The notes: generated from the sequence alone by a model not told the origin. 64,000 nucleotides of DNA from Acidobacteriota bacterium (GCA_014584695.1 JACTMI010000004.1:128006-192005), one strand, 5' to 3'; positions 24,821 to 40,706 are shown, numbered from the stretch's first letter. Numbers and translations are program-made.

Positions 24821-25683
24821 CCCACCGCCGCGCGCTGGTTCTGGTGGCGATCTCGGCGCTGTCGTTCGCGGCGATGGCGGTGGTGACCAAGCTGGCGACC
24901 GCGACGCTGCCGGGCGGGCAGGTCGCGTTCGTCCGCTTCGTGCTGATGCTGGTCCCGTTCGCCCTGGTGCCGGGCCTGGCCCGCCGCGCCCTCACCTGGC
25001 AGCGGCTCGATCTGCTGATCTACCGCGGTCTGTTCGGCGGCGTCGCGGTGCTGCTCTACTTCCTCGCCATCGAGCACGTGCCGGTCGGCACCGCGACGCT
25101 GCTCAACTACAGCTCGCCGATCTGGGCGGTGCTCGCCGCCGCGCTCTTCCTGGGCGAGCGGGTGCGGCCGCTGCTGCTCCTGCCCTTCGCGCTCGCGATG
25201 GCGGGGATGCTGCTCGTCACCGGCGCGCTCGAGGGCGGCGGCTGGCCGCGGCTGGGCCCCTGGGAGCTCGCCGGGCTCGCCTCTTCGGTGCTCTCGGGCG
25301 GCGCCGTGGCGGCGATCCGCGCCGCGCGCCGAACCGAGGGGAGCTGGGCGATCTACGGCAGCTTCACCCTGTTCGGGATCCTGGTCACCGCGCCCTTCGC
25401 GCTCGCGAGGTTCCGCTGGCCCGACGCCCGCGAGTGGCTGCTCCTCGCCGCCATCGGCCTGTTCTCGATCGCGGCCCAGATGACGATGACCTACGCCTAC
25501 CGCTGGGTGACCAATCTCCAGGCCGGCGTGCTGGCCCAGATCACCGTGGTCTCGACGCTCGCCCACGGCGCGCTCTTCTTCGGCGACGTCTTCACTCCGC
25601 GCCAACTGCTCGGCGCCGCTCTGGCGCTGGCCGGCATCGTCGGCGTCGTCGCGCTCCAGCCGCCACCCCGCGCGGTGGAGTGA
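24817..25683 (+). CDS. EamA/DMT-family transporter
   Basis: ATGA overlap; ten hydrophobic segments; duplicated EamA halves; 288 aa; only the 3' portion of the 614-aa track ORF is genuine. Confidence 0.7.
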   Translation: MTHRRALVLVAISALSFAAMAVVTKLATATLPGGQVAFVRFVLMLVPFALVPGLARRALTWQRLDLLIYRGLFGGVAVLLYFLAIEHVPVGTATLLNYSSPIWAVLAAALFLGERVRPLLLLPFALAMAGMLLVTGALEGGGWPRLGPWELAGLASSVLSGGAVAAIRAARRTEGSWAIYGSFTLFGILVTAPFALARFRWPDAREWLLLAAIGLFSIAAQMTMTYAYRWVTNLQAGVLAQITVVSTLAHGALFFGDVFTPRQLLGAALALAGIVGVVALQPPPRAVE

Positions 25684-25716: not shown

Positions 25717-27885
25717 TCAGTCGGCGATGGCGACTTGGGCCAGGCTCGCCGCTCGGCGCTCACCCTGGGTGATCGAGAGCTTCAGCGTGTGAGGGCCGGG
25801 CTTGGCGCCTCCGGCCGACAGTGCCACCCGCCAGAGCTCCTGCCCCTCGACCGGCGTCGCGCGGCGCTCGACCAGCCGCGCGCCGGCGCCGGCGACCGCG
25901 CCGCCGGCGGCGTCCGCGAGCTCGACGTCGAGCTCCACCGGTCCGGCGCCGAACCCGGCGACGCCGAGCCAGAAGGTGGCGTCGCCTCGGGTCCGCAGCG
26001 GCGCCAGGGCCGAGGGGAGGAAGAAGCTCTCGCCGTCGACGAACGGAAAGGGGAGCCCGCGGGTCTTCTCGGCGCTGGAGGCGGCCCGCACCAGGAGGCC
26101 GGCCGTCATCGGCGTGCCGACCAGCGCCGGCGTCACCAGCGTGCCACCCGCGGCGAGGTCGGGGATCGGCAACGCGACGTGCTCGACTCGATGGCGGCCG
26201 TCGCCCTCGCCGGCGCGGGTCAGCACCCGCACGGTGTAGTCGCCCGGCGGCAGCAGGAGGTCCCCGACGAGGCGCACCGTTCCGGCGCGGAGGTGGCCCG
26301 CGACCGTCGCCGGATCGAGCTCCGCGCTCTGCGCGGTGAAGTCCCGCACGGCGCCCGAGGCGTCGAAGGCGTAGGCGTAGAAGACGACCGGCACGCGGCC
26401 CCCGCGCGCCAAGCCACCGAGCGCCGGCGCCGAGACCTCGACCACCACCGGCACGTGGGCACGGCCGTCCGCGGTGCGAAACGGCGCCACCACCGTCGCA
26501 GCCTCGAGCGCGCCGCCCGAACGACCGGCCAGCAGCAGCTGCGAGCTCTCGAGCTGGCGCGCGGCCGGGGCGCGGCCACCGTCGGCAGCGGGCGCGTAGT
26601 AGCCGGGCCGGTGGACGAGCCGGGCGCCGGAGGGACCGCCCTTGAGCCGCACCCGCAGCTCGTGGAACTTGCCGTCGAGCTTGACGTCCTGGGGCTCGAT
26701 GGTGAGGACGTAGGTGACGCTGGTGGCGGCGAGCATGGAGGCCATCGCGCGACCGAGATCGTTGAAGTGCTCGAACAACTGCCCGCCGGTGTCGCGCGCC
26801 ATCGTGAACAGCGTGTCGCGGCCGGAGGCGCGCGGCCGCAGGTCCGAAGTGTCGACCAGCCCGCTGATGTCGACGGCCTGGATGACGCAGTCGGCGCGGC
26901 GCAGCTCGCCGAGCATCTGCTCGAGCTGGTTCTGCAAGCGGGTGTTGCCGAAGCGCTGCTCGGAGTCGACGTTCCAGATCTCGCCGAAGGCGGAGGCCTC
27001 GCCGGCCGCCGCCTGCTCCTCGGCGCTGGCGGTGCCGAGGAGGGCGGTGGACTCGAAGCCCTGCGAGAACAGCACCACCTGCTTGCGACCGACGAGCGCG
27101 CCCATCAACCGCGCCAGCTCGGCATAGCCGCGCGTCAGCGCGGCGATCTCGCCCTGTTGGACCTGCCGTCGCGCGCTCCGCTCCGCCGCCGCCAGCTCGC
27201 GCAGGTTCTCGAGGATCGCCTCGTCGATCTCGGCGCGAGGCCTCTGCCGGCTGCCGGCTCCGCCGGCGCCGGGCGCCTCCAGGGCGGTGAGCTGAAGGCC
27301 CAGCGGGTCGGGGGTCCGGTCGCGCAGCTCGACGAGGCCGAGGGTGTCGATGGCCAGCTCGGCCTGCCGGCGATCGGCGGTGAAGCCGAGGACGATGCGA
27401 GCGCCCGCCCGGAAACCGTAGGTCGCGACCGCCACGAGGTCGCTGGGGTGGAGCCCGTCGCGCAGCACGGCGCGCGCGGCGTCACGGGCGCGCGCCAGCG
27501 CCGAGGGCTCGGAGTGCGAGAGGTCGAAGAGGAGGAGGAAGTGGCGCCGTCCGGCCGGCGAGACCCGGTCGGTGACCGCGCCGAGGGTGAGGCCCGCCGT
27601 GGGCGCCGGCGGCGAGAGGTCGACGACCTCGAAGCCGACGATCGCGCGCTGCCGCCGCCCCTCGAACACCTCGAAGTGCTCGCGCGTCAGGCCGCGCACC
27701 GGCAGCCCGTCGGCGAGCACTTGCACCGGGATCTCGACCGCGAGCACGGTCGTCGTCTCGGAGAACTCCCGTCGCTGCGCCCCGGCGGTCGCGGCCGCGA
27801 CCGCGAGCAGCGCAGTGGCGGCAGCGCAGCGGGCGCACCATGCACGATAGGGCCGGGGTCTCGTCTGCCGAGCTTCGTTCGCCAC
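25717..27885 (-). CDS. secreted VWA-domain protein, VWFA-related Acidobacterial-domain family (paralog B)
   Basis: GTG start preceded by AGGAGG; signal peptide (RAWCARCAAATALLAVAAATAGAQ); VWA core (HFLLLFDLSHSE..., VVLFSQGFES, GNTRLQNQLEQML..ADCVIQAVDISGL); about 40% identical to paralog A over the full length. Confidence 0.65.
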   Translation of the reverse strand: MANEARQTRPRPYRAWCARCAAATALLAVAAATAGAQRREFSETTTVLAVEIPVQVLADGLPVRGLTREHFEVFEGRRQRAIVGFEVVDLSPPAPTAGLTLGAVTDRVSPAGRRHFLLLFDLSHSEPSALARARDAARAVLRDGLHPSDLVAVATYGFRAGARIVLGFTADRRQAELAIDTLGLVELRDRTPDPLGLQLTALEAPGAGGAGSRQRPRAEIDEAILENLRELAAAERSARRQVQQGEIAALTRGYAELARLMGALVGRKQVVLFSQGFESTALLGTASAEEQAAAGEASAFGEIWNVDSEQRFGNTRLQNQLEQMLGELRRADCVIQAVDISGLVDTSDLRPRASGRDTLFTMARDTGGQLFEHFNDLGRAMASMLAATSVTYVLTIEPQDVKLDGKFHELRVRLKGGPSGARLVHRPGYYAPAADGGRAPAARQLESSQLLLAGRSGGALEAATVVAPFRTADGRAHVPVVVEVSAPALGGLARGGRVPVVFYAYAFDASGAVRDFTAQSAELDPATVAGHLRAGTVRLVGDLLLPPGDYTVRVLTRAGEGDGRHRVEHVALPIPDLAAGGTLVTPALVGTPMTAGLLVRAASSAEKTRGLPFPFVDGESFFLPSALAPLRTRGDATFWLGVAGFGAGPVELDVELADAAGGAVAGAGARLVERRATPVEGQELWRVALSAGGAKPGPHTLKLSITQGERRAASLAQVAIAD

Positions 27886-27905
27886 GTCTCCTCCTTCGGC
27901 TCGTC

Positions 27906-30056
27906 CTACGGCCCGGCCTCGATGGTCAGGGGGGTGGTCGTGCCGGCGACTCGCCGACCGTCTCCATCGACGACCTGGAGCTCCAGCAGGTAGGTGCCCG
28001 GAGCCGCGGCCGTCGCCGCCAGTGTGCCCCGCCACTTCGCCATGCCCGGCGAGCCGGCCGGCGACGTCTCGATCTCGACTCGCGGCGGCGGCGCCGGGCC
28101 GCCGCGCGGCTCGCGCAGCGCGGCCTCGACCCGCAACGGGCCCGCCGGCAGATCGTAGCCCACCAGCAGGAAGGGCGCCGGCGAGCCGTCCGCTCGAATG
28201 CGCGGCGCGGCCTGCGGAACGAACGGCTCGCCCGCGACCACGAACGGATAGACGAGGCTGTCGGCCTCTCCCTCCGGCGGCGACTCGCGCGCCAGGAGCC
28301 ACCGCCCGCCCAGATCGAAGAGGAAGGGCGGCAGGAGCCGCGGCGCGCGCGCCGAAGCCGCCGGCACGTGGAGCGGGAGCGTGGCGAGGCCGGTGCGCCC
28401 GCCGCGCCCCTCGCGGGCGAGCGCGACGAGGCGATAGTCGCCCCCGGCCAGGTCGAGGTGGCCGTAGTACTTGAAGCCGTCGAGACCGCGCGCGGCGGCG
28501 GTCGGGGAGTCGTCGAGCGCCACCCGCCGCGCGAGGAAGTCGCGCATCTCGCCGCTGCTGTGGATCGCGTAGACGTAGATCTCGAGCGGCAGCGGTCCCG
28601 CCGGGACCTCGGGAAAGAGCCCCCGGGATCCGATCTCGAGGACCACGGGGACGTAAGCCTCTTCCCCGCCGGAGCGAAACGGCGCGGCGAGCGCACGGAC
28701 CTCGAGCGCCGCGGCGGGACGCTCGAGCGCGATCGTCTCGGCGGCGAGCAGAGCCTTCTCGAAGGGGTGGAGCTCGGGGAACGGCCGCGGCGCGTAGAAG
28801 CCCGCGCGGTGGGCGACGCGCAGGCCGCGGCCACCGACGACGCGCACCGCCAGCGGATGGAAGGCGCCGTCGTCCGCGATGCCGGTGGCCGCGACGGTCA
28901 GCAGATAGGCCTGCGAGGAGCGGCGCAGGGCTCGTCCGATGGCGGCGTGCAAGTCGTTGCCCTCGTCGACCAGCGAGCCGCCGCTGCCGTGGGCCAGGTG
29001 GAAGAGCGCTTCGGTGCCGCGAGCCGAGGACAGCCCATCGGCGCCGCCGCGCAGCCCTCCGACGTCGACCGCGTGCGCGACGCAGTCGGCGCGCCCGAGC
29101 TCGGTCAAGAGGCGCTCGACCTCGCCTTGGAGCTGGGTGTTGCCGAACCGCTCGTCGGAGTCGACCTGCCAGATCTGTCCGGTCTGGAGCTCCAGGTTGC
29201 CGAGCGCGTCCTCCTCGCCCCGCGGATTGGACCGCCCGAGCAGCAGGGCGCTGTCGAAACCCTCCGAGAAGAGCAGGATCTGCTTGCGCCCGGGCACCTC
29301 GGCCAGCCGACGCGAGAGCCAGGCCAGCTCGCGCGCCCAGCCGATGACCCGGGTGCGCTCGTACTGCCGGTGCTCGCGTGCCGCGGCGTGCGCGAGGATG
29401 CGCGAGCTCTCGAGGTCGATCTGCTCGATCTCGGCGCGCAGGTCGCCGCTGCCGGAGACGGCGACGCTGCCCGCGACCGCCGGGCTCGAGAGGCCTGGCA
29501 GCAGGAAGCCGAGGGGATCGAGGTGGGCCGTCGCGGCGCGTCGGTGCTCGAAGCTGGAGCTGTCGAGGGCGCGCGCGACCTGCGCCCGGTCGGGGGTGAA
29601 GGTGAGGAGCAGTCGGGGTCCGAGATCGGCCGAGAAAGTGGCGACTCCCACCAGGTCGGTCGGATGGAGCTCGTGCAGCACGACCTCCCGCGCCGCCTGG
29701 CGGGCGCGGGCGAGCGCGCCGGGGTTCGAGAAGGTGAGATCGAAGAGCAGCAGCACGTGCCGGCGGTAGCGCGGAGGCGGCCCCGCGGCCTCGGGTCGGG
29801 CGAGCGCGGACGCGGCCGGCCGGGCGCCGAAGTGGAGCGCCTCGAAGCCGACGATCTCGAGGCGGCGCCGGCCACGCCGGACCTCGAATCGATCGGCGGT
29901 GAGGCCCGCGACCGGCTCGCCGTCGCGGTCCAGCACCTCGACGGCCACCTCGACCTCGAGCACGTCGAGACGCCCCTCGAAGCGCGGCGCCACGGGCTGC
30001 GTGGCGGCGAGACCGGCCGCGGCCAGCGCACCCGCGAGCGCGACGAGGCTCTTCAC
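27906..30056 (-). CDS. secreted VWA-domain protein, VWFA-related Acidobacterial-domain family (paralog A)
   Basis: Signal peptide MKSLVALAGALAAAGLAA; VWA core (HVLLLFDLTFSN..., ILLFSEGFDS, GNTQLQGEVERLL..ADCVAHAVDVGGL); GTGA overlap with the upstream transglutaminase-TPR gene. Confidence 0.75.
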   Translation of the reverse strand: MKSLVALAGALAAAGLAATQPVAPRFEGRLDVLEVEVAVEVLDRDGEPVAGLTADRFEVRRGRRRLEIVGFEALHFGARPAASALARPEAAGPPPRYRRHVLLLFDLTFSNPGALARARQAAREVVLHELHPTDLVGVATFSADLGPRLLLTFTPDRAQVARALDSSSFEHRRAATAHLDPLGFLLPGLSSPAVAGSVAVSGSGDLRAEIEQIDLESSRILAHAAAREHRQYERTRVIGWARELAWLSRRLAEVPGRKQILLFSEGFDSALLLGRSNPRGEEDALGNLELQTGQIWQVDSDERFGNTQLQGEVERLLTELGRADCVAHAVDVGGLRGGADGLSSARGTEALFHLAHGSGGSLVDEGNDLHAAIGRALRRSSQAYLLTVAATGIADDGAFHPLAVRVVGGRGLRVAHRAGFYAPRPFPELHPFEKALLAAETIALERPAAALEVRALAAPFRSGGEEAYVPVVLEIGSRGLFPEVPAGPLPLEIYVYAIHSSGEMRDFLARRVALDDSPTAAARGLDGFKYYGHLDLAGGDYRLVALAREGRGGRTGLATLPLHVPAASARAPRLLPPFLFDLGGRWLLARESPPEGEADSLVYPFVVAGEPFVPQAAPRIRADGSPAPFLLVGYDLPAGPLRVEAALREPRGGPAPPPRVEIETSPAGSPGMAKWRGTLAATAAAPGTYLLELQVVDGDGRRVAGTTTPLTIEAGP

Positions 30057-31165
30057 CGCGCCTCCGGCGGCAGCCGCGTCGCGAGCCGCAGCGCTTCCGG
30101 ATGCGTCGCGTCCAGACGCAGCGCCCGGGACAGATGGTGCCGCGCGCGGGACAGGTCACCGACCGCGAGGTAGGTCTGCGCCAGGGCGACGTGGACCTCG
30201 GGCAGCTCGGAGTCTTGCCGCAGCGCCTCGGTCAGATACTCGAGCGCTCGCAGGGGCTCGTCCTGGGCGAGGGCGAGCTGTCCGCGGTAGACGAAGAAAT
30301 AGGGATTCGACACGCGCAGGGCTTCGAGCCGGTCGAGCACCCGGGAGGCCTCGTCGAGGCGGCCCGCGCGCTGGTGGAGCCGCGCCAGGTTGTTGAGCAG
30401 CGCCGGCTCCTCCGGGGCGAGCGCCAGACCGGTGGCGTAGGCCGCTCCGGCGCCCGCTTCGTCCCCACGCCGAGCCCGCGCCACCCCGAGGTTGTTCCAG
30501 GCGCGAGCGAAACCGGGCGCCACCCGGACCGCGGTCGCGAGCAGCTCGGCCGCGCGCTCGGCGTCGTCGGCGAGCAGCGCTTCCGCGGCGAGATTGTTGT
30601 AGAAGTGGGCGACCGCCGTGACGTCGTCGATCGGCCGGAAGCTCCGGTAGGGCTTCGGTCGGTACGGCAGGAAGTCGTAGGTTCGCAGCGTCCCGTCGAC
30701 GCGGAGCCCCGCGACCACGTGCCCCTGGCTCACCACCATGCCGTGAGAGTGGCTCCAGCTCTGCGCGTCCTCGACCTCGACGTAGAAGGCGGCGAGCCGG
30801 TCGGCGCGCGCCAGTCCAACGAAGAGATTGACGAACGAGAGGCAGTTGCCCTGCCGGCTCCGGTAGGCGCCGGCGGCGTCGCGGGTGGGGCGGAGCCGGT
30901 ACTCGAGCCGCAGGTCGCCGAAGACGAAGTCGGCAAGGGCCGCGGCGCGCCGGACCTCGCTGGCCGAGCCGGTGCGGCGGCGTTCGGCCAGCGCCGCCAG
31001 CTCGGCGTCCAACTCGAAGGGGACGAGGACCTCCAGGGCCTGGTCGCCCATCCGGTCGACTAGCGTCGCACGGAGGTGGCGGGCCGAATCGAAGGGCTGG
31101 TAGGTGGCGCAGCCGGCCAGGCTGAGGGCCAGCAACCAGCCCCGCGGTCGATCAGCCCGGCGCAT
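30053..31165 (-). CDS. lipoprotein with a transglutaminase-like cysteine-protease core and C-terminal TPR repeats
   Basis: Lipobox LALSLAGC; GNCLSFVNLFVGLARA (TGase Cys motif) with downstream His/Asp; at least four TPR units (AWNNLGVARARRGDEAGAGAAYATGLALAP...). Confidence 0.7.
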   Translation of the reverse strand: MRRADRPRGWLLALSLAGCATYQPFDSARHLRATLVDRMGDQALEVLVPFELDAELAALAERRRTGSASEVRRAAALADFVFGDLRLEYRLRPTRDAAGAYRSRQGNCLSFVNLFVGLARADRLAAFYVEVEDAQSWSHSHGMVVSQGHVVAGLRVDGTLRTYDFLPYRPKPYRSFRPIDDVTAVAHFYNNLAAEALLADDAERAAELLATAVRVAPGFARAWNNLGVARARRGDEAGAGAAYATGLALAPEEPALLNNLARLHQRAGRLDEASRVLDRLEALRVSNPYFFVYRGQLALAQDEPLRALEYLTEALRQDSELPEVHVALAQTYLAVGDLSRARHHLSRALRLDATHPEALRLATRLPPEAR

Positions 31166-31509
31166 TCCGCAGTCTCTCTCTCGCGGTGCCGGCCCGCAAG
31201 ATGCCGCGGCCAGCGAAGTCTCGGACCGGCCCCGGCCAGGGTCGGTCCGACGCAGCAATCACCGCGCTCGTAAGGGGGGAGCGGGCGCTCGCGAGCCGCA
31301 GCTACCAGCCCGCGACCGGCCCAAGTCGGCCCCGAGGAATGACGATTGGGCACTGATTTGGCCCCACTTGCCCCAGCAGCGTTTCGGGTTAAACTGGCCG
31401 GACCAGTCGAAGCCGGAAGGAGGTGACGGAACCCGCGCGGTGGCTCTCGCGCGGGCGGGGTGGAGAAGCCCTTAGCTGAACGGACTTCATCAATGACCCG
31501 AGAAGGAGG

Positions 31510-34323
31510 TTGAGAAAGATGACAGGACGGAGTGTTTGGAGTCGCTGCGCGGCGATCGTCGGAGTGATCCTGATGATCGGCAGCGCCCCCCTGCTCGGCC
31601 AGGCTCAGGCCGGCACCATCTTCGGCACGACCCAGGACGAACAGGGTGCCGCCCTGCCGGGTGTGACCGTGACCATCCGGGGCGGTGGCGCGCCGGTCGT
31701 GGTCGTTTCGGATGCGCAAGGCGCCTTCCGCGCGGTGGGTCTGCCCCCGGGCAGCTACCACCTGAGCGCGGCGCTCGAGGGCTTCGCCACCGTCGAGTAC
31801 CCGAGCGTCAACGTCGCCGTCGGCCGCAACACGACCCTCGAAGTGCGGATGCAGGCCGCGGTCGAGGAGACGATCACGGTCACGGCCGAGTCGCCGCTGC
31901 TCGACTCGCGGCGCATCACCGCGGGCGCCCAGGTCAGCCAGGTGGAGCTCGAGAAGATCCCGAGCGCGCGCGATCCCTGGGTGATCCTGCAGACCACGCC
32001 GGGCGTGCTCGTCGACCGGGTCAACGTCGGCGGCAACGAATCGGGCCAGCAGTCGACCTACACCGGCCCGGGTGACGACGGCACCAACTCGACCTGGTCG
32101 ATCGACGGCGTCGAGATCACGGACATCGGCGCCATCGGCTCGTCGCCTTCGTACTACGACTTCGACGCCTTCGAGGAGATGCAGGTGACGAGGCGGCAGC
32201 GACGCGACGTTGCGCACCGGCGGCGTCGGCCTGAACATGGTGACCAAGCGCGGCACCAACCAGTGGCGCGGCACGGCCCGCTACCTCTACTCGGACGACT
32301 CCTGGCAGTCGAACCTCAACTTCGACCGCGGTGAGCTGGCGCCCGGCCAGCCCGCCTTCGCCCAGGGCAACCGGATCGTCGAGGTCACCGACTGGGGCGG
32401 CGACATCGGTGGCCCGATCGTCAAGGACAAGCTGTGGTTCTGGGCCTCTTACGGCGAGAACGACATCCGCCTGCTGACGGTGCTCGACGTGCCGGACAAC
32501 ACGCTGCTCAGATCAAGATCGGGCGCAACGCCTCGCCGACGCGGCCGCCGGAGACGACCTGGAACCAGGGCGGCTATGGCGGCGGGCCGACGGTGCTCAA
32601 GGTCGAGGACACCCACATCTTCTCCTCGGCCTTCTTCCTCTCGGCGATGTACTCGGAGACCAACGGCAGCTTCCAGCTCGCCCCCCAGGGCGGCTTCACG
32701 CCGACCCAGAACAAAGCGGCCCTGGACGAGGACTTCATCTGGCGCAACACCTTCCTCTTCTACGGCAGCAAGCGGCCGCAGGACCAGGCGAAGGTCGACG
32801 GGTCCTACTTCTTCGGCACCGGCAACCTGAGCCACGAGCTGAAGTTCGGCACCAGCTACCGCGAGGGTGAGATCCGCTCGCTGTCCCGCTGGCCGGGCGG
32901 CGGCATCGACCTCAACTTCTACGAGCAGTACGGCTACGCCTACAACATCGTTCAGCTGACCAACGACGGCATCACCAACTACAACGTCCGCTACACCAAC
33001 GCCTACGTCCAGGACACCATCACGACCGGTAACCTGACGCTCAACGTTGGCGCGCGCTACGACAAGCAGGACGGCAAGCAGCTGGCGGGTGTCTCGGCGG
33101 CGAATCCGACTTTCCCGGCGCTGATTCCGCAGCGGACATTCGGGGGTCAGGACATCGGCTTCGACTGGACCTCGATCAGCCCGCGTCTGGGTCTGACCTA
33201 CAACGTCGGCGGCGCCAACCGGACGCTCCTGCGGGCGAGCTACTCCCGCTTCGCCGAGCAGTTGTCGGGCCTGGCGGCGTCGTGGACCTACCCGCTCTAC
33301 CCGTACACTTCGGTCTACACCTACTACGACGACCGCAACGGCGACGGCCACTCGCAGGCCAACGAGATCATCCCGGGAGTGCTGTTCAACTCGGGCAACT
33401 ACAATCCGGCGAACCCGTCGCAGATCGTCATCTCCTCGGCCGTCGACTCCAACCTCGACCCGCCGATGACCGACGAGCTGCTGCTCGCCTTCGAGCACGC
33501 CGTGCGGCCGGAGTTCGTGGTCGGCGTGAACTTCACCTACCGGCTGACCACGGACATCCTGGAGAACGAGCGGTTGGTCTTCGACGGTGACGCCACGTCG
33601 CCGGCGAACATCAACAGCCTCGGCCGCGTCCATCGGCGCAGCGACTACGTGCAGACCGGCACTGTCAACGTGACGCTGCCCAACGGGCAGGCGAGGTCGA
33701 TCCCGGTCTACGGGCTGCGGCCCGGAGTCACGACGCGCAACAACAACTCGCTCGGCGTCCAGTCCGGTGGCTTCCTGACCAACGGCGACCGCGAGCAGGA
33801 GTACATGGGCGTCTCCTTCACGTTCAACAAGCGGCTGTCGAACCGCTGGATGGCGCGCGGCAACTTCACCTGGTCGGACTGGGAGTGGAAGGTCCCAGAG
33901 AGCGAGCGGGAGGATCCGAACCAGTCCTTCGGCGGCGGCAACCGGGACGGCGACGCGGTGGTGACCTGCGTCGGCACCGGTTCGGGGGCCAAGGCCGGGG
34001 TGTGCATCAACAGCAGCTGGTCGTACAGCCTCAACTGGGTGCGAGCGCCGCAGGGTGGTATCAGCGGCGTCTACAACTTGATGGTCACCGACCGGCCGGA
34101 TCAGTTCCGGGCCGACGACATCCACGTCGTCGACCTGCGAGTCGAGAAGGAGTTCACTTTCGACCGCGTCGGGCTGACCGTCGGCGCGGACGTGTTCAAC
34201 GTCTTCAACGAGGGCACCGTGCTGCAGCGCGAGCTGCGGCTCGGCCAGGCGCAGGGCAACTTCGTTCGCGAGGTGCTCTCGCCCCGGGTGTTCCGACTCG
34301 GCGCCCGGTTGAGCTTCAACTGA
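31510..34323 (+). pseudogene. TonB-dependent-receptor-like outer-membrane protein (CarboxypepD_reg + plug + beta-barrel), copy 1, disrupted by two compensating frameshifts
   Basis: GAAGGAGG RBS and signal peptide; frame switches +1 at about 32191 (after FEEMQVT) and back at about 32510 (after LDVPDNTLL); C-terminus ARLSFN; three track ORFs (31510.., 32210.., 32434..) tile the gene. Confidence 0.6.
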
Positions 34324-34688
34324 TCGCCGCCTGACGCCTGATCGCGCGCCGCCGGACCTTCGGGACCGGCGGCGCGCGGTGTTTTCGGCCGCCTCCCGCT
34401 CCGCCGGGATGGATCGCCCCACCGCGCCTGCCTGAACGACGAGGGACCAATCGCGCTTGACGGGGGCGAGGCGGCGGTCCGCGGACCGGGAGTCCCACTC
34501 GTCGCCCTCCGAGCGCTGGCTCCCGCCTTGCTCCCGGAGCTCCTCACACGCGAACCCGTGAAGCCACGCCGGCCCCAGCGGGCGGCCGGAGAGAGCGCCA
34601 GCAAAGAGCTCAGGGGCCAACGGACCGCGCGACCGCCCGCCGCATGGCGCGGCCGGGCGAACCGCTCGCAGCGGGAAGGAGCATCGGC

Positions 34689-37532
34689 ATGAGAAGCAGG
34701 ATCTCGTGGTACCGAAGCGCCGCGATCCTCGGCGCGGCCTGGCTGGTCGGCGCGGCGGCAGCCGTCGGCCAGGTGCAGTCGGGCAATGTCTACGGCACCG
34801 TCAGGGACGCCGCCGGCGCCCCTCTTCCGGGCGTCGTCGTCACCATGACCGGCGGCGGCGCTCCCGCCGTCCAGGTCTCGGACGCGCAGGGGACGTTCCG
34901 CGTTCTCGGCCTCAGCCCCGGGACCTATCAGCTCGTCGCCGCGCTGGACGGCTTCGCCAACGTCGAGTACCCGAGCGTGACCGTCGCCGTCGGCCGCAAC
35001 ACTTCGCTCGAGATCACGATGCAGTCGGCGATCGAGGAGACGATCACGGTCACGGCCGAGTCGCCGCTGCTCGATTCGCGGCGCATCACCGCGGGCGCCC
35101 AGGTCAGCCAGGTGGAGCTCGAGAAGATCCCGAGCGCGCGCGATCCCTGGGTGATCCTGCAAAGCACGCCGGGCGTGCTCGTCGACCGGGTCAACGTCGG
35201 CGGCAACGAATCGGGCCAGCAGTCGACCTACACCGGCCCCGGCGACACCGGCGCCAACGCCGCCTGGTCGATCGACGGCGTCGAGATCACGGACATCGGC
35301 GCCATCGGCTCGTCGCCTTCGTACTACGACTTCGACGCCTTCGAGGAGATGCAGGTGACGAGCTGCGCACCGGCGGCGTCGGGATGAACATGGTGACCAA
35401 GCGCGGCACCAACCAGTGGCGCGGCTCGGCCCGGCTGCTGCGCGCCGAAGACTCCTGGCAGTCGGACCTCGACTTCGACCGCGGCGACCTGGCGCCGAAC
35501 CAGCCCGCCTTCGCCCAGGGCAACCGGATCGTCAGCGTCGAGGACTACGGCGCCGAGCTCGGCGGCCCGATCGTCAAGGACAAGCTGTGGTTCTGGGCCT
35601 CTTACGGCGAGAACGACATCCGCCTGCTGACGGTGCTCGACGTGCCGGACAACACGCTGCTCGGCGACCTTCTTCTACTCGAACAACGAGAAGATCAAGA
35701 TCGGGCGCAACGCCTCGCCGACGCGGCCGCCGGAAACGACTTGGAATCAGGGCGGTTGGGGCGGCGGTCCGACGGTCGTCAAGGTCGAGGACACGCAGGT
35801 CTTCTCCTCGAGCTTCTTCGCCTCGGTGATGTACTCCGAATCCAATGGCAGCTTCCAGTTGACGCCGCAGGGCGGCACCTCGCCGACCCAGAACAAGGCG
35901 TCGCTGGACGAGAACTTCGTGTGGGGAAACACCTTCCTGTTCTATGGCAGCAAGCGGCCGCAGACCCAAGCGAAGGCCGACGGGTCCTACTTCTTCGGCA
36001 CCGGCAACCTGAGCCACGAGCTGAAGTTCGGCACCAGCTACCGCGAGGGCGAGATCCGGTCGCTGACCCGCTGGCCGGGCGGCGGCATCGACCTGAACTT
36101 CTACGTCGCCAACTACGGCTACGCCTACAACATCGTCCAGCTGACCAACGATGGCATCTGGAACTACGACGTCGAGTACACGAACGCCTACGTCCAGGAC
36201 ACCATCACGACCGGCAACCTGACCGTGAACTTCGGCGCCCGCTACGACCTCCAGGGCGGAACGCAGCGGGCCGGAGTCGCGGCGGCGAATCCGACTTTTC
36301 CGGCGCTCATTCCGGAGCGTCGCTTCGCGGGCCAGGACATCGGCTTCGAGTGGTCGACGATCAGCCCGCGCCTGGGTCTGACCTACAACGTCGCCGGCGG
36401 CAACCGGACGCTGCTGCGGGCGAGCTATGCCCGCTTCGCCGATCAGCTCTCCGGCCTGGCCGCCGGCTGGACCTACCCCCTCTATCCCTACACTTCGGTC
36501 TACACCTACTACGACGACCGCAACGGCGACGGCCATTCACAGGGCAGCGAGATCATCCCCGACGTGCTGTTCAACTCCGGCAACTACGACCCGGCCAACC
36601 CGTCCCTGATCCTGTTCTCTTCGGCCGTCGACCCGGGACTCGACGCGCCGGTGACCGACGAGCTCCTGTTCGCGGTCGAGCATGCCCTCCTGCCGGAGTT
36701 CGTGGTCGGGCTCAACCTGACTTACCGGCTGTCGACCGACCTGCTGGAGCAGGAGCGCCTGGTCTTCGACGGCGACCCCTACTCGGCGACCAACGTGCGC
36801 AGCGTCGGCCGCGTCCACCGGCGCGACGACTACGTCCAGACCGGCACCGTCACGGTGACGCTGCCGGGCGAGTCGACGCCACGACAGGTGCCGGTCTACG
36901 GACTGCGGCCGGGGGTCGGAACCCGCAACGGCAACGTCCTGGGCGTCCAGCAGGGGGGCTATCTGACCAACGGCGACCGGGAGCAGGAGTACCTGGGAGT
37001 CTCGTTCACGTTCAACAAGCGGCTGTCGAACCGCTGGATGGCGCGCGGCAACTTCACCTGGTCGGACTGGGAGTGGAAAGTGCCGGAGAGCGAGCGGGAG
37101 GATCCGAACCAGCTGTTCGGCGGTGGCAACCGGGACGGCGACGCGGTGGTGACCTGCGTCGGCACCGGTTCGGGGGCCAAGGCCGGGGTGTGCATCAACA
37201 GCAGCTGGTCGTACAGCCTCAACGAGGGCTACGCGATGCCCTATTGGGTTCGCGCGAGCCTAGCGGGCGTCAGTGGCGCCTACTACCTGAACATCACCGA
37301 CCGGCCGGATCAGTTCCGGACCGACGACGTGCACACGCTCGATCTCCGGGTCGAGAAGGAGCTGACGTTCGATCGCTTCGGCCTCACGCTCGGGATCGAC
37401 GCGTTCAACGTCTTCAACTCCGGCACGGTCCTGCAGCGGGAGCTGCGGCTCAATCAGGGACAGGGAGACTGGGTGCGCGAGGTGCTCTCGCCCCGGGTCT
37501 TCCGGGTGGGCGCGCGGCTCAGCTTCAACTAG
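34689..37532 (+). pseudogene. TonB-dependent-receptor-like outer-membrane protein, copy 2 (tandem paralog), disrupted at the same two positions
   Basis: GGAAGGAG RBS and signal peptide MRSRISWYRSAAILGAAWLVGAAAAVGQ; frame switches at about 35361 and about 35668; otherwise collinear with copy 1 with high amino-acid identity. Confidence 0.6.
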
Positions 37533-37647: not shown

Positions 37648-38592
37648 ATGAATTCCACCAACCTGTCGCGTACGGCGGTGGCGCTGCTGCTCGGGCTGGC
37701 GGTGCTCCTGCCGGCCACCGGGACCGCGCAGGACTGGAAAGGGCGTGGCCGCATCCAGGGCGAGGTGACCGACGAGCGAGGAGCGCCCGTCGCCGCGGCC
37801 AGCGTGACGCTGCGTTGGGGCGTGGCGCCCGACCAGGGACCGGCGCCGCTCGCCACCGACAGGAAGGGCAAGTGGTCCTTTCTGGGGCTGGTCGGCGGGG
37901 CCTGGATCGTGCTCGTCGAGGCGCCGGGCTTCGTGCCTCAGGAGGGATCGGTCCAGGTCAACGAATTCGGCGCGGTGCCGCCGATCAAGATGAAGCTGCG
38001 GCCGGCGGAGGCGAGCGCCGCGCCGGTCGATCCCGCAGTCGCGGCGATCGAGGAGGGCAACCGCCTCCTGGGCGAGGGGCGCCACGCGGAGGCGCGGGCC
38101 GCCTACGAGCGCTCGCTCGCCGATCTGCCGGCGGCGAGCCGTCCGGCGGTGATGCGGGCCGTCGCGCGCACCTGGTTCGACGGCGGCGATGCGGCGCGCG
38201 CGATCACCGTGCTCGAAGAGAGCCTGGCGCTCGCGCCGGACGACGCCGAGTCGCTGCGCTTGATCGTCACCCTGCTGGTCGCGGCCGGCCGGGAGGCCGA
38301 CGCCCGCGCCTACATGGCCCGTCTCCCCGCCGGTGCCGAGGTCGACGCCGACACGCTGCTCAACCTGGGCATCGATCTCTACAACCAGAACCGGCTCGAG
38401 GAGGCGCTGGCCGAGTTCGACCGCGTCGTGACGCAGCAGCCGACGCTCCCCGATGCCTATTACTACCGGGGCCTCGCGCGCCTCGGGCTGGGGCGCGGCG
38501 AAGAGGCCAAGGCCGACTTCCAGAAGCTGCTCGACCTCGACCCGAGCCACGCCAAGGCCGAGGATTGCCGACAGTTCCTCTCCTCGCTCTGA
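37648..38592 (+). CDS. secreted protein with an N-terminal CarboxypepD_reg-like domain and C-terminal TPR repeats
   Basis: Signal peptide; GRIQGEVTDERGAPVAAASVTL prealbumin-like unit; TPR-like helices (AYYYRGLARLGLGRGEEAKADFQKLLDLDP). Confidence 0.6.
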   Translation: MNSTNLSRTAVALLLGLAVLLPATGTAQDWKGRGRIQGEVTDERGAPVAAASVTLRWGVAPDQGPAPLATDRKGKWSFLGLVGGAWIVLVEAPGFVPQEGSVQVNEFGAVPPIKMKLRPAEASAAPVDPAVAAIEEGNRLLGEGRHAEARAAYERSLADLPAASRPAVMRAVARTWFDGGDAARAITVLEESLALAPDDAESLRLIVTLLVAAGREADARAYMARLPAGAEVDADTLLNLGIDLYNQNRLEEALAEFDRVVTQQPTLPDAYYYRGLARLGLGRGEEAKADFQKLLDLDPSHAKAEDCRQFLSSL

Positions 38593-38618: not shown

Positions 38619-40706
38619 GTGCGTCGCGCAGGCTCTCCGCTGCCGCTCGCCGGTCTGCTCGTCGCGCTCGCGGCCGCCGGTGCTTGTGACTCCGGGCGCG
38701 AGGCGGCGGCGCCGCCACCCCCGGCGGCGCGCCCGGACGTCGTGCTGATCACCGTCGATACGCTGCGCTGGGACGCGGTCGGATTCGCCGGCAACTCGCG
38801 AGTGCGGACGCCGACGCTCGACCGGCTCGCGGTCGCCGGCAGGGTCTTCACCGACGCGCACGCCCACAACGTCGTCACGCTGCCGTCCCACGTCAACATC
38901 CTGACCGGGCTCTATCCCTTCCAGCACGGCGTCCGCGACAACGCCGGCTTCGTGCTCGGCGAGGAGGTTCCGACGCTGGCGACGCTCTTGTCGGCCGCGG
39001 GTTACGCCACCGGGGCCTTCGTCGCGGCCTACCCGCTCGATCGGCGCTACGGACTAGCCCGCGGCTTCGACCTCTACGACGACCGATTCCGCCGCGGCAC
39101 CGACCCGGCCGCCTTCGTCATCGCCGAGCGGCGCGGCGACGAGGTCGTGGCCAATGCGCTCGGCTGGTGGCGCTCGGCGGCCGGACGCCCGCGGTTTCTC
39201 TGGCTCCACCTCTACGATCCCCACGCCGCCTACGAGCCGCCCGAGCCGTTCGCCTCGGAGTATCGCGATCACCCCTATCTCGGCGAGGTTGCGGCGACGG
39301 ACGCCTTCCTGACGCCGTTGCTCGCGCCGCACCTCGACGGCGCCGAACCGCCGGCCCTCGTCCTGTTCACTTCGGACCACGGCGAAGCGCTGGGCGCGCA
39401 CGGCGAGCTGACCCATGGACTGTTCGCTTACGAACCGACGCTCAAGGTTCCGCTCGTCCTCTGGGGTCCGGGCGTCGAGCCCGGGCGCGACGGCCGCGCG
39501 GCGCGCCACGTCGACATCGTCCCCACGGTCCTCGAGGCGCTCGCGCTCGCGCCGCCGGGGCGACTGCCCGGCCACTCGCTCCTCGGACCCCCGGGCGCCG
39601 GGGTCGAGACCTACTTCGAGGCCCTGACCACCGCCCTGCACCGCGGCTGGGCGCCGCTCTTCGGCGTCATCCGCGACGGCGTCAAGGTGGTCGATCTGCC
39701 GGAGCCCGAGCTCTACCGTCTGGTCGAGGATCCCGAGGAGCGAGAAAACCGCTACGGCGCCGAGGCCGCGCTCGCGCGCGAGCTGCTGGCGCGGCGACCG
39801 GCCACCGCGTGGCCGCCGCAGCGGCCGGCGGCGAGCGGCGACGAGGAGGCGGCCCGGCTGCGCAGCCTCGGGTACCTGGTGGGCTCGGCGCCGCTGCGCG
39901 AGGCGTTCGGTCCCGAGGACGACCCGAAGCGGTTGGTCGGTCTCGACCGCCAGATCCACCTGGCGATCGATCACTACTCACGCGGCAGGTTCGCCGAGGC
40001 GGCGCGCCTCGGCGCCGCGATCGCGCGCGATCGCCCGGGGATGGCCGACGGCTACACGATGGGCGCGCTCGCGCTGCGTCAGCTGGAGCGCCACGAGGAG
40101 GCGATCGCGCTGCTCGCGACCGGCCGCGAGCGGACCGGCGGCGACGAGTCGGTGGTGCGCGCCCTCGGGCTCGCGCTCGCCGAGACCGGTCGCGCCGGCC
40201 GGGCGGTGGAGCTGCTTTCCCCCCTCGAGACGACGGGCCAACCCGAGACGCTGCGCGCCCTGGCGACCGCGCTCGCCGACGCGGGCGAGCCCGAGCGGGC
40301 GCGGCGGGTCCTCGACCGCGCGCTGCGGGAGCTGCCGGACGACCCGCGGGCGATCGAGCTCGCTGGCGTCATCGCCCTGCGCGACGGCCGTCCCGAGGAG
40401 GCGCGTCGTCACCTCGAACGGGCGCTCGAGCTCAACGACGAGCTGGCGACCGCCTGGAACTCGCTCGGCGTCGCGCTCTATCCGATCGAGGGTCCACGCG
40501 CCGCTCTGGGTGCCTGGCAGCGGGCGGTCGAGCTCGATCCGCGGCAGTTCGACGCGCTGTTCAACCTCGGGCTCGTGGCGGCGAGCGTCGGCGAACGAGA
40601 GCTGGCGCGGCGCGCGCTCGAGCAGTTCCTGCGCACCGCCCCGCCGGAACGCTACGCGCCAGACTTCGCGCGCGCCCGCGGACTGCTCGTCGAGGTGGCG
40701 GGATGA
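38619..40706 (+). CDS. lipoprotein: sulfatase-fold (alkaline-phosphatase superfamily) domain with Thr at the nucleophile position, plus C-terminal TPR domain (paralog 1)
   Basis: GTG start; lipobox-like LAAAGAC; VLITVDTLRWD metal-site motif; TLPSHVNILTGLYP in place of the C/SxPxR formylglycine motif; TSDHGE..HG; TPR repeats after about residue 430. Confidence 0.7.
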   Translation: MRRAGSPLPLAGLLVALAAAGACDSGREAAAPPPPAARPDVVLITVDTLRWDAVGFAGNSRVRTPTLDRLAVAGRVFTDAHAHNVVTLPSHVNILTGLYPFQHGVRDNAGFVLGEEVPTLATLLSAAGYATGAFVAAYPLDRRYGLARGFDLYDDRFRRGTDPAAFVIAERRGDEVVANALGWWRSAAGRPRFLWLHLYDPHAAYEPPEPFASEYRDHPYLGEVAATDAFLTPLLAPHLDGAEPPALVLFTSDHGEALGAHGELTHGLFAYEPTLKVPLVLWGPGVEPGRDGRAARHVDIVPTVLEALALAPPGRLPGHSLLGPPGAGVETYFEALTTALHRGWAPLFGVIRDGVKVVDLPEPELYRLVEDPEERENRYGAEAALARELLARRPATAWPPQRPAASGDEEAARLRSLGYLVGSAPLREAFGPEDDPKRLVGLDRQIHLAIDHYSRGRFAEAARLGAAIARDRPGMADGYTMGALALRQLERHEEAIALLATGRERTGGDESVVRALGLALAETGRAGRAVELLSPLETTGQPETLRALATALADAGEPERARRVLDRALRELPDDPRAIELAGVIALRDGRPEEARRHLERALELNDELATAWNSLGVALYPIEGPRAALGAWQRAVELDPRQFDALFNLGLVAASVGERELARRALEQFLRTAPPERYAPDFARARGLLVEVAG

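What the first reader, a model, noticed from the sequence alone, without database searches (positions are those of the whole stretch)
25717..31165. Transglutaminase-TPR lipoprotein translationally coupled to two divergent VWFA 'Acidobacterial-domain' paralogs
On the minus strand the order is: TGase-like/TPR lipoprotein -> (GTGA overlap) VWFA paralog A -> (20-nt gap, AGGAGG, GTG) VWFA paralog B. Both VWFA proteins are about 720 aa, secreted, collinear and only about 40% identical. That indicates an old duplication kept in tandem. The TGase + TPR + twin-VWA combination recalls Bat-type aerotolerance loci, but there is no MoxR ATPase partner here. The operon diverges from the OMP/TPR/sulfatase genes across a 344-bp control region (31166-31509). 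The whole 25.7-45.1 kb stretch therefore looks like one envelope-remodelling island.
Basis: partly seen in the sequence, partly recalled or inferred. Interest (0 to 1): 0.55.

Follow-up and report, generated by a model that had tools for sequence, protein, structure and literature searches.

The report
Conserved acidobacterial transglutaminase–VWA envelope operon
Three co-transcribed genes, for an outer-membrane lipoprotein with a transglutaminase-type active site and two old, diverged von Willebrand-A proteins, form one arm of a gene cluster kept in about 80 Thermoanaerobaculia-type Acidobacteriota genomes next to a TonB-dependent outer-membrane channel; nobody has described the cluster and its function is unknown.

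Summary
On the minus strand lie a transglutaminase-core plus TPR lipoprotein (30053-31165), VWA-A (27906-30056, GTGA overlap) and VWA-B (25717-27885, 20-nt gap with AAGGAGGAG). Both VWA proteins pass TIGR03436 and are 37% identical.

New findings:
- The operon and its divergent partners are syntenic in about 80 species-level genomes of Thermoanaerobaculia, Holophagales and relatives. The partners are an Oar-class TonB-dependent transporter, a CarboxypepD_reg-TPR protein and 1-3 'sulfatase'-TPR lipoproteins.
- The first VWA gene is always A-type. It is followed by 0 to at least 4 B-type copies (counts are bounded by the 10 kb of flank held), so the A/B split is ancient and the order is fixed.
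- The Cys-His-Asp triad of the lipoprotein is invariant.
- The 'sulfatases' carry T-L-P-S-H in place of the formylglycine motif.
- It is not a Bat locus: there is no MoxR or DUF58, and the VWA proteins have no membrane anchor.

Function is inferred, not shown. My best guess is a TPR-scaffolded envelope complex around the TonB-dependent gate that captures and processes a substrate. The main rival is Oar-like export of the VWA proteins to the cell surface.

Two cautions apply to this window: both transporter copies carry paired frameshifts, and the regulatory motifs conserved in relatives are not recognisable here.

Verdict: a new variant of a known kind, of moderate interest.

The parts
30053..31165 (-). 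Outer-membrane-type lipoprotein of 370 aa: N-terminal transglutaminase-core domain followed by about five TPR pairs.
   Evidence: Lipobox LAGC19. PF01841 scores 27.4 bits against a cut-off of 23, and the TPR families pass their cut-offs. All 14 N-domains of relatives that were scanned hit only PF01841. C108, H149 and D164 are invariant in 39 relatives. The AlphaFold2 model has pLDDT 91.9: Cys108 opens helix 108-121, and His149 and Asp164 lie on strands 149-156 and 159-164. The TPR part resembles PilF and TTC0263.
27906..30056 (-). VWA-A (716 aa), the A-type paralog: signal peptide, small beta-sandwich, VWA domain with a helical and disordered insert, then tandem Ig/FnIII-like beta-sandwich domains.
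   Evidence: TIGR03436 scores 132 bits. The GTG start overlaps the upstream stop. The AlphaFold2 model has pLDDT 82.8 and pTM 0.80. Foldseek hits are RbmA, integrin alphaX-beta2, factor XIII beta-sandwich domains and vWF A1. The MIDAS-type motif is D106-x-T108-x-S110. D106 is 100% conserved; in A-type proteins position 108 is Ser or Thr in 100% and S110 is kept in 94%. This gene type is always first in the array.
25717..27885 (-). VWA-B (722 aa), the B-type paralog, with the same architecture as VWA-A.
   Evidence: TIGR03436 scores 143.5 bits. It is 37% identical to VWA-A. A 20-nt gap containing AAGGAGGAG precedes its GTG start. B-type proteins are relaxed at the middle MIDAS position (Ala 45%, Ser 41%). 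This copy reads DLSHS but has Q in place of the 92%-conserved Glu and E in place of the Asp in the S-E-G-F-D loop.
31166..31509 (.). Divergent intergenic region of 344 bp between the lipoprotein operon and the transporter operon.
   Evidence: Sequence read. It has no Rfam family match and no sigma-70 consensus site. Relatives carry conserved promoter, operator and leader motifs here, but this window's copy scores no better than shuffled sequence against those motifs.
31510..34323 (+). Oar-class TonB-dependent transporter, copy 1, interrupted by two frameshifts.
   Evidence: CarboxypepD_reg and Plug domains at the N-terminus, with a TonB-box-like ETITVTAE. Tblastn with the intact 1017-aa ortholog shows frame 1, then frame 2, then frame 1, with breaks near 32190 and 32510.
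34644..37532 (+). Oar-class TonB-dependent transporter, copy 2, also interrupted by two frameshifts.
   Evidence: The frame runs 3, then 2, then 3, with breaks near 35370 and 35660. Relative to orthologs there are deletions at both junctions.
37648..38592 (+). Exported CarboxypepD_reg plus TPR protein (314 aa from the ATG at 37648; the ORF opens at 37552).
   Evidence: Pfam hits. Signal-like hydrophobic segment. Present in 46 of 47 related loci with enough flank.
38619..40706 (+). Alkaline-phosphatase-superfamily ('sulfatase') plus TPR lipoprotein 1.
   Evidence: PF00884 at E = 2.8e-38 plus TPR families. GTG start at 38619, lipobox AGAC.
40703..42988 (+). 'Sulfatase' plus TPR lipoprotein 2; its start overlaps the upstream stop by 4 nt.
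   Evidence: PF00884 at E = 7e-41. ATGA overlap. T-L-P-S-H aligns to the C-x-P-x-R formylglycine motif of solved sulfatases.
42985..45144 (+). 'Sulfatase' plus TPR lipoprotein 3; its start overlaps the upstream stop by 4 nt.
   Evidence: PF00884 at E = 6.2e-39. ATGA overlap. Lipobox AAGC.

Best explanation
**Shown**
- The three genes form a compact operon.
- It encodes an exported lipoprotein with a catalytically intact transglutaminase/papain-type Cys-His-Asp domain fused to a PilF-like TPR module.
- It also encodes two exported VWA proteins of distinct, ancient orthologous types. A comes first and B follows. Each has a MIDAS-type metal site and a tail of Ig/FnIII-like domains.
- The operon is the fixed right arm of a divergent cluster kept throughout Thermoanaerobaculia-like Acidobacteriota. 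The left arm encodes one to three Oar-class TonB-dependent transporters, a CarboxypepD_reg-TPR protein and one to three Thr-nucleophile alkaline-phosphatase-superfamily enzymes fused to TPR domains.

**Inferred, the mechanism I commit to**
- All products meet in the periplasm or at the outer membrane.
- The four kinds of TPR module scaffold them into one complex around the TonB-dependent gate.
- The VWA/Ig proteins, one A plus a variable number of B, act as metal-dependent binding subunits.
- The transglutaminase-fold lipoprotein either cleaves or tethers these VWA proteins, or acts on the bound ligand.
- The phosphoesterase-like lipoproteins hydrolyse the substrate that the TonB-dependent transporter moves.

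In short, it is a transporter-centred capture-and-processing ('utilisome-like') module, not a Bat system. The confidence of 0.4 applies to this inferred mechanism. That the genes form a conserved, co-functioning envelope cluster I hold at about 0.85.
For: - Junctions and domains.
- Triad C108/H149/D164 invariant in 39 relatives, and 14 of 14 N-domains hit PF01841.
- Structure models and fold hits.
- A-type is first in every locus; B-type follows.
- MIDAS-type residues D106, S/T108, S110, D180, E265 and D268 are at least 90% conserved in A-type proteins.
- Synteny: 71 of 74, 59 of 62, 46 of 47 and 41 of 47 loci. Copy number varies: VWA 0 to at least 4, 'sulfatase' 0-3, transporter 0-3.
- The flanks differ between genomes, so the cluster itself is the conserved unit.
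- The transporter has CarboxypepD_reg, Plug and a beta-barrel, with a TonB-box-like motif.
- The 'sulfatases' keep the metal and nucleophile motifs but have Thr and His in place of Cys/Ser and Arg. This points to phosphoryl-transfer chemistry.
- In most relatives both arms share one intergenic region with conserved promoter-like and operator-like boxes.
- Every product carries a signal peptide or a lipobox.
Against: - No experiment or paper bears on any of these proteins.
- The cluster has no inner-membrane transporter and no SusD-like partner.
- Whether the VWA proteins are in the periplasm or on the surface is unknown.
- Nothing shows that the transglutaminase domain acts on the VWA proteins. 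Adjacency and a 4-nt overlap are the only link. In about a third of relatives a DUF3179 gene or a larger gap separates them.
- In this window both transporter copies are frameshifted.
- The window's intergenic region lacks the conserved motifs.
- Fold matches are generic Ig and TPR folds with low TM-scores.
Confidence: 0.4

Rival explanations
1. Export and display system. [quoted passage not shown] The TPR lipoproteins act as pilots or chaperones. The transglutaminase-fold lipoprotein cleaves, cross-links or anchors the VWA proteins into a surface adhesin or matrix layer.
For: - Oar shares the CarboxypepD_reg, Plug and barrel architecture and is required for PopC secretion from the periplasm (PMC6434023; architecture here).
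- The VWA proteins have signal peptides but no known outer-membrane sorting signal.
- Their fold hits are adhesin or matrix-like: RbmA, integrin, factor XIII domains.
- They evolve faster than the lipoprotein, about 40-50% against 52-64% identity. Their copy number also varies. Both are typical of surface proteins.
- VWA surface adhesins that work with outer-membrane barrels and TPR proteins exist, for example CglB/Glt (PMC9946355).
Against: - This model gives no role to the one to three conserved esterase-like enzymes.
- CarboxypepD_reg-type transporters are also ordinary importers.
- Oar-mediated export is known from a single case.
- No localisation data exist.
Confidence: 0.2
2. Bat-like or MoxR-type VWA stress complex. 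The operon is a diverged aerotolerance-type system in which VWA and TPR proteins form a membrane complex that protects against oxidative or envelope stress.
For: It shares the VWA (MIDAS) plus TPR vocabulary, an envelope location and a multi-VWA tandem arrangement, as in BatA/BatB (PMC3557215).
Against: - No MoxR (AAA_3) or DUF58 is present in the window. None appears in the called genes within about 10 kb in three relatives.
- The VWA proteins lack transmembrane anchors. They match VWA_2 only below its threshold and belong to TIGR03436.
- The TPR sits on a transglutaminase lipoprotein, not on a VWA protein.
- The conserved partners (transporter, esterases) are not Bat components.
Confidence: 0.07
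3. Cell-wall or outer-membrane biogenesis module. The transglutaminase/papain-fold TPR lipoprotein is a peptidoglycan or lipoprotein hydrolase scaffold, like an NlpI-MepS fusion. The VWA proteins and esterase-like enzymes remodel envelope polymers. The transporter is only a neighbour.
For: - Papain and transglutaminase folds include cell-wall peptidases, and TPR outer-membrane lipoproteins scaffold such enzymes. This rests on my own knowledge of NlpI/MepS and was not tested here.
- Alkaline-phosphatase-superfamily enzymes with a Thr nucleophile include LtaS- and EptA-type envelope modifiers (own knowledge).
- All products are in the envelope.
Against: - The transporter is as strictly syntenic as the other genes, 59 of 62 loci.
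- The esterase-like proteins lack the multi-span membrane domains of LtaS and EptA.
- The cluster contains no peptidoglycan- or LPS-related domain.
Confidence: 0.13

Closest known systems
NCBIfam TIGR03436 (acidobact_VWFA), the 'VWFA-related Acidobacterial domain' family
   Same: Both VWA proteins pass the curated cut-off over the whole model, residues 29-423 and 45-432. They come from Acidobacteriota, as the family was defined.
   Different: These are 716-722 aa proteins. They carry a roughly 70-residue insert in the VWA domain and about 290 extra C-terminal residues of Ig/FnIII-like domains. They split into two position-specific orthologous types inside one conserved cluster. The family itself has no assigned function and no literature in the searchable library.
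Bacteroides/Leptospira Bat aerotolerance operon (BatA-E with MoxR)
   Same: Several VWA (MIDAS) proteins and TPR modules are encoded together and predicted to form an envelope complex (PMC3557215).
   Different: There is no MoxR, no DUF58 and no transmembrane-anchored VWA. The TPR is fused to a transglutaminase lipoprotein. The conserved partners are a TonB-dependent transporter and esterase-like lipoproteins.
Myxococcus xanthus Oar, the TonB-dependent transporter needed for PopC secretion
   Same: The divergent partner gene has the Oar-subclass architecture of CarboxypepD_reg N-terminal extension, Plug with TonB box and a large barrel (PMC6434023).
   Different: The similarity is at the level of architecture only. 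I tested no orthology to Oar, no PopC-like protease is present, and the direction of transport here is unknown.
Myxococcus CglB/Glt outer-membrane platform (VWA adhesin with outer-membrane barrels and TPR proteins)
   Same: A VWA protein with a MIDAS site works at the outer membrane together with beta-barrel and TPR proteins (PMC9946355).
   Different: CglB is itself a lipoprotein and belongs to a motility machine. Here the VWA proteins are not lipoproteins and no Glt or motor genes are present. The only matches to GltE and Tgl are weak, generic TPR hits far below their cut-offs.
Transporter-centred utilisation loci (SusC/SusD-type PULs)
   Same: A transporter with a CarboxypepD_reg-type N-terminal domain is clustered with TPR-containing lipoproteins, hydrolase lipoproteins including 'sulfatases', and beta-sandwich binding proteins. 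Gene copy numbers vary.
   Different: No SusD-family hit appeared in any protein scanned. The enzymes are not glycoside hydrolases. The cluster is kept class-wide rather than being niche-specific.

Membership tests
TIGR03436 acidobact_VWFA | HMM score at or above the curated cut-off of 81.25 bits | tested here: met
   132.0 bits (VWA-A) and 143.5 bits (VWA-B), covering model positions 4-324 and 5-324.
VWA fold with MIDAS | D-x-S-x-S at the end of beta-1, plus downstream acidic or Thr ligands | tested here: inconclusive
   The motif reads DLTFS in A and DLSHS in B. D106 is 100% conserved. Position 108 is Ser or Thr in 100% of A-type proteins but Ala in 45% of B-type. D180 and E265/D268 are at least 90% conserved. 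I inferred the ligand geometry from the secondary structure of the model and did not inspect it in 3D. The generic Pfam VWA_2 model scores below its threshold.
Pfam PF01841 Transglut_core | Score at or above the gathering cut-off of 23 bits | tested here: met
   27.4 bits for the full protein and 29.1 bits for the N-domain alone. All 14 relatives scanned match, and match only this family.
Pfam PF01841 Transglut_core | Catalytic Cys-His-Asp triad | tested here: met
   C108, H149 and D164 are invariant in 39 sequences. They lie on the helix N-terminus and on two following strands, as in the papain/transglutaminase core. Enzyme activity was not tested.
Bat aerotolerance operon | MoxR AAA+ ATPase (PF07726) and a DUF58 protein in the same cluster | tested here: not met
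   Neither is found in the predicted proteins across the window. Neither appears in the called genes around three orthologous loci.
Bat aerotolerance operon | Membrane-anchored BatA/BatB-type VWA proteins | tested here: not met
   Only an N-terminal signal-like segment is present and there are no further hydrophobic windows. The proteins belong to TIGR03436, not to a BatA/B-type family.
MoxR-DUF58-transglutaminase (TgpA/YebA-type) triads | Polytopic membrane transglutaminase protein next to MoxR and DUF58 | tested here: not met
   The transglutaminase protein is a 370-aa lipoprotein without transmembrane windows, and no MoxR or DUF58 is present. The family definition is from my own knowledge.
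Formylglycine-dependent sulfatases (type I) | C/S-x-P-x-R signature that supplies the formylglycine nucleophile | tested here: not met
   T-L-P-S-H aligns to the signature of GALNS and other solved sulfatases. T-x-P-[SA]-H accounts for 66 of the 68 orthologs in which my motif pattern found a match, out of 119 screened. PF00884 is nonetheless met.
Oar subclass of TonB-dependent transporters | CarboxypepD_reg N-terminal extension, Plug with TonB box, and beta-barrel | tested here: met
   PF13620, PF07715 and PF25183 all hit the intact ortholog. PF13620 and Plug hit both window copies. The definition is taken from PMC6434023. Orthology to Oar and any export function were not tested.
Known anti-phage defence systems (PADLOC) | A hit to any PADLOC model beyond generic repeats | tested here: not met
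   The only hit is a 44-residue TPR match, PDC-M71B at 27.8 bits.

The most novel reading that the evidence does not exclude
The cluster is a previously unrecognised surface-protein export and display pathway of Acidobacteriota. An Oar-class TonB-dependent transporter exports an ordered set of VWA/Ig proteins, one A-type 'base' and a variable number of B-type units. A dedicated transglutaminase-fold outer-membrane lipoprotein then covalently processes or cross-links them into a surface adhesin or matrix. In most lineages the whole system would be under sigma-54/enhancer control.
Probability: 0.12. Interest if true: 0.8.

Novelty: new variant of a known kind. Interest (0 to 1): 0.45.

Why it matters
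Thermoanaerobaculia and their relatives are widespread, mostly uncultured Acidobacteriota whose envelope biology is essentially unknown. TIGR03436 VWA proteins are one of the phylum's signature paralog expansions, and no function has been assigned to them.

This work places two position-specific types of these proteins in a strictly conserved cluster. Their partners are a catalytically intact transglutaminase-fold lipoprotein, an Oar-class TonB-dependent transporter and Thr-nucleophile esterase-like lipoproteins. That gives the family its first concrete, testable functional context.

If the transporter exports the VWA proteins, it would be a second, independent example of TonB-dependent protein secretion. 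If it imports, the cluster would define a non-Bacteroidota 'utilisome' architecture.

Tried and rejected
**Searches that found nothing useful**
- A single-protein scan of genome contigs with VWA-A found no confirmed relative. The profile scan with the lipoprotein alignment succeeded.
- Profile searches of PDB sequences gave no meaningful match for the VWA family or the transglutaminase N-domain. Whole-protein searches were swamped by TPR matches.
- The third homolog search, using the transglutaminase N-domain alone, returned only fragments of the same family and no distant relatives with other partners.
- Literature searches for TIGR03436, 'VWFA-related' and combinations with Acidobacteria found nothing relevant.
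- No riboswitch or known RNA family lies in the spacer or elsewhere in the window, apart from two tRNAs. There are no sigma-70 consensus sites or meaningful terminators in 25.3-31.7 kb.
- RNAalifold on the aligned transporter leaders predicted no consensus structure, because the alignment is too gappy.

**Interpretations rejected**
- Defence system: PADLOC was negative.
- Bat membership: rejected, see the membership tests.
- Horizontally acquired 'island': the GC dip at 32-38 kb coincides with the transporter genes, and the cluster is vertically conserved across the class.


Full report
**1.

On the minus strand there are three consecutive ORFs with high third-position GC.
- The first runs from ATG 31165 to stop 30053 and encodes 370 aa. 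It opens with MRRADRPRGWLLALSLAGC, a lipoprotein signal with Cys19.
- Its TGA stop overlaps the GTG start of the second ORF (30056-27906, 716 aa) in the sequence cGGTGAag.
- Twenty nucleotides after the TAG stop of the second ORF, and preceded by AAGGAGGAG, a GTG at 27885 opens the third ORF (to 25717, 722 aa).
- Independent gene calls on public contigs that carry identical proteins give the same three products.

**2. Domain identity**

The lipoprotein matches Pfam Transglut_core at 27.4 bits against a cut-off of 23, over residues 58-152. It also matches many TPR families above their cut-offs over residues 183-365.
- The transglutaminase score is modest but robust. All 14 N-domains of relatives hit PF01841 and nothing else.
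- Cys108, His149 and Asp164 are invariant in 39 relatives of 52-62% identity.
- In the AlphaFold2 model (pLDDT 91.9), Cys108 opens a helix, and His149 and Asp164 lie on the next strands. This is the papain/transglutaminase arrangement.
- The TPR half superposes on PilF-type outer-membrane lipoproteins and TTC0263.

Both downstream proteins pass NCBIfam TIGR03436, at 132 and 143.5 bits against a cut-off of 81.25. They match the generic VWA_2 model only below its threshold. They are collinear and 37% identical.

**3. Architecture of the VWA proteins**

The VWA-A model (pLDDT 82.8, pTM 0.80) shows, in order:
- a signal helix;
- a small N-terminal beta-sandwich;
- a VWA domain carrying a disordered loop (residues 177-213) and a long helix (214-251) as an insert;
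- about 290 residues of tandem beta-sandwich domains.

Foldseek against PDB finds RbmA, integrin alphaX-beta2, factor XIII beta-sandwich domains and, lower down, vWF A1. Sequence profiles find no solved relative.

The MIDAS-type motif D-x-S/T-x-S is conserved. D106 is 100% conserved. Further acidic residues (D180, E265, D268) are at least 90% conserved.

**4. The duplication is ancient and ordered**

A profile scan of one genome per species returned 229 relatives of the lipoprotein, of which 80 loci were kept. All are Acidobacteriota or unclassified metagenome bins: Thermoanaerobaculia, Holophagales and 'Multivoradales'.

Tblastn of the window's proteins against these loci shows a nearly invariant map. 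The order is 'sulfatase'-TPR (0-3 copies), CarboxypepD_reg-TPR and transporter (usually one, up to three) on one strand. On the other strand lie the transglutaminase-TPR gene and then the VWA genes.
- VWA genes lie downstream on the same strand in 71 of 74 loci with enough flank.
- The transporter lies divergently upstream in 59 of 62.
- The CarboxypepD_reg-TPR gene is present in 46 of 47, and a 'sulfatase'-TPR gene in 41 of 47.
- The number of VWA genes within 10 kb is 0 (2 loci), 1 (7), 2 (16), 3 (13) or 4 and more (19).
- In every locus the first VWA gene scores higher with VWA-A. Later copies score higher with VWA-B, apart from three near-ties.

So A and B are distinct orthologous types that predate the radiation of the class. 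The B type is the one that multiplies.

The A type keeps Ser or Thr at the middle MIDAS position in 100% of sequences. The B type has Ala there in 45%.

The flanking genes differ between genomes. In the window they are EamA, a thioesterase and a salicylyl-CoA hydroxylase-like gene on one side and an AMP-ligase on the other. In relatives they are an RlmI-like methyltransferase or thrS. The cluster itself is therefore the conserved unit, and its limits in the window are 25717 and 45144.

**5. The divergent arm**

- The outer-membrane protein has the Oar-subclass transporter architecture: CarboxypepD_reg N-terminal extension, Plug, an ETITVTAE TonB-box-like motif and a large barrel (definition from PMC6434023).
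- The three 'sulfatase'-TPR lipoproteins are joined by 4-nt ATGA overlaps.
- They match PF00884 strongly. Where solved sulfatases have C/S-x-P-x-R, the formylglycine site, they have T-L-P-S-H. This substitution recurs in orthologs.
- They are therefore unlikely to be classical sulfatases. They more probably use a Thr nucleophile, as phosphodiesterases and phosphotransferases of the alkaline-phosphatase superfamily do. That last step is an inference from established knowledge of the superfamily.

**6. What it is not**

- No MoxR or DUF58 is encoded among the predicted proteins across the window. None appears among the called genes near three orthologous loci.
- The VWA proteins have no membrane anchor.
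- The TPR is not on a VWA protein.
- Bat membership, as characterised in PMC3557215, therefore fails.
- PADLOC is negative.
- No paper in the searchable library mentions TIGR03436 or this combination of genes.

**7. The control region**

In relatives, the spacer between the lipoprotein and transporter genes is unusually conserved for genomes whose proteins are only about 50% identical.
- On the transporter side, 53 of 75 loci carry TGGCAY-N5-TTGC, the sigma-54 -24/-12 consensus. Shuffled controls give 0.05.
- That element is fused to TTGACC-N17-18-TAGAGT in 52 of 75 loci.
- Downstream lies a leader of about 150 nt with a pseudo-Shine-Dalgarno GAAAGGRGGTGTTGC and a GC hairpin.
- On the lipoprotein side, many loci have TGGCACGTTCCCTGCTATATTG a few nucleotides before the ATG.
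- Between the two sides lie palindrome-like boxes of the form ATCCAR-N-TTGRA. At least one box occurs in 50 of 75 loci and a tandem pair in 18 of 75; shuffled controls give about 0.

This fits co-regulation of both arms from a shared enhancer or operator. That reading is an inference.

The window's own spacer, and those of its closest relatives, do not score above shuffled sequence against these motifs. Its regulation therefore cannot be read from sequence. The window does encode two sigma-54 activators about 25 kb away.

**8. Mechanism**

The following is shown.
- All cluster products are exported proteins.
- Four kinds of protein in the cluster carry TPR scaffolds.
- The lipoprotein has an intact Cys-His-Asp site.
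- The VWA proteins keep MIDAS-type ligands.
- The esterase-like enzymes keep their catalytic motifs.
- A TonB-dependent gate is always present.

From this I infer a TPR-scaffolded envelope complex around the transporter, in which:
- the VWA/Ig proteins bind a ligand or each other, as one A plus several B;
- the transglutaminase-fold lipoprotein processes or tethers them, or acts on the ligand;
- the esterase-like lipoproteins hydrolyse the transported substrate.

I prefer uptake and processing (confidence about 0.4) because it gives every conserved component a role. The variable copy numbers also fit it.

The main rival (about 0.2) is Oar-like export of the VWA proteins to the surface. Three points favour it: the Oar precedent, the adhesin-like folds and the faster evolution of the VWA genes. 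A role in envelope biogenesis (0.13) and a Bat-like stress complex (0.07) are less likely.

**9. Caveats**

- Both transporter copies in the window carry two compensating frameshifts around an internal segment of roughly 120 codons, with deletions at the junctions relative to intact orthologs.
- Short-read contigs carrying the identical operon all break where the two copies become nearly identical.
- I cannot tell whether this is an assembly artefact or real pseudogenisation.
- The fold evidence is generic.
- No experimental data exist.

**10. Verdict**

It is not a Bat system. It is an undescribed variant of VWA/TPR envelope systems tied to a TonB-dependent transporter. The function remains inferred and interest is moderate.

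Noticed in passing
window 31510-34323 and 34644-37532 (+): Two tandem Oar-class TonB-dependent transporter paralogs each carry two compensating frameshifts, near 32190 and 32510 in copy 1 and near 35370 and 35660 in copy 2. These bracket a nearly identical internal block. The shifts have opposite signs in the two copies, and there are deletions at the junctions relative to intact orthologs. Short-read contigs of the same organism break at the start of the repeated block. This is either an assembly or polishing artefact or real pseudogenes; it is unresolved.
   Followed up: partly
L009-L089, spacer between the transporter and lipoprotein genes (window equivalent 31166-31509): The intergenic architecture is highly conserved across about 75 species. 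On the transporter side, TGGCAY-N5-TTGC (sigma-54-like) occurs in 53 of 75 loci, fused to TTGACC-N17-18-TAGAGT. Just before the lipoprotein ATG, many loci have TGGCACGTTCCCTGCTATATTG. Between them lie ATCCAR-N-TTGRA palindrome-like boxes, at least one in 50 of 75 loci and a tandem pair in 18 of 75. The window's own spacer lacks recognisable copies.
   Followed up: partly
L-loci, about 150 nt upstream of the transporter start (alignment A4): The 5' leader is conserved. It has a pseudo-Shine-Dalgarno GAAAGGRGGTGTTGC about 100 nt upstream of the real ribosome-binding site, which is reminiscent of STAB-SD elements. It also has a GC-rich hairpin (CCGCGA...TCGCGG, with apparent compensatory variants such as CTGGCGC...GCGCAG). 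It matches no Rfam family, and RNAalifold found no consensus structure on the gappy alignment.
   Followed up: partly
window 38619-45144 (+): The three 'sulfatase'-TPR lipoproteins have T-L-P-S-H where sulfatases have the C/S-x-P-x-R formylglycine motif, so they are probably Thr-nucleophile phosphoesterases rather than sulfatases. The three genes are joined by ATGA overlaps.
   Followed up: yes
L021 11100-12500, L037 11073-12404 and about 20 other loci: In roughly a third of relatives a DUF3179 gene (PF11376, 234.8 bits) sits between the lipoprotein gene and the first VWA gene. The window has no DUF3179 homolog anywhere.
   Followed up: yes
window 22134-25683 and 45147-52953: The cluster is flanked on both sides by aromatic and acyl-CoA metabolism genes. 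On one side are a salicylyl-CoA 5-hydroxylase-like gene (1039.7 bits, just under the 1078-bit cut-off), a 4HBT thioesterase and EamA. On the other are an AMP-ligase, enoyl-CoA hydratases and a thiolase. It looks as if the cluster sits inside a catabolic neighbourhood in this genome only.
   Followed up: no
window 17883-22091 (+): A 1381-1402 aa protein made of repeated CarboxypepD_reg/Big-like domains has a weak match to an anammox S-layer glycoprotein model. It is probably a large surface protein a few kilobases beyond the VWA-B end of the cluster, separated from it by the three metabolic genes at 22134-25683.
   Followed up: no
window 1592-2512 (+) and 5720-8775 (-): There are two sigma-54 enhancer-binding proteins. 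One lacks a receiver domain. The other is an NtrC-type response regulator with its histidine kinase. They are candidate regulators, given the sigma-54-like promoters seen in relatives, but no link was tested.
   Followed up: no
L001-L006 (Logan contigs): The exact VWA-A protein occurs in 68 blocks of public SRA assemblies, so this organism or a near-clone has been sampled repeatedly. This is useful for expression mining.
   Followed up: no
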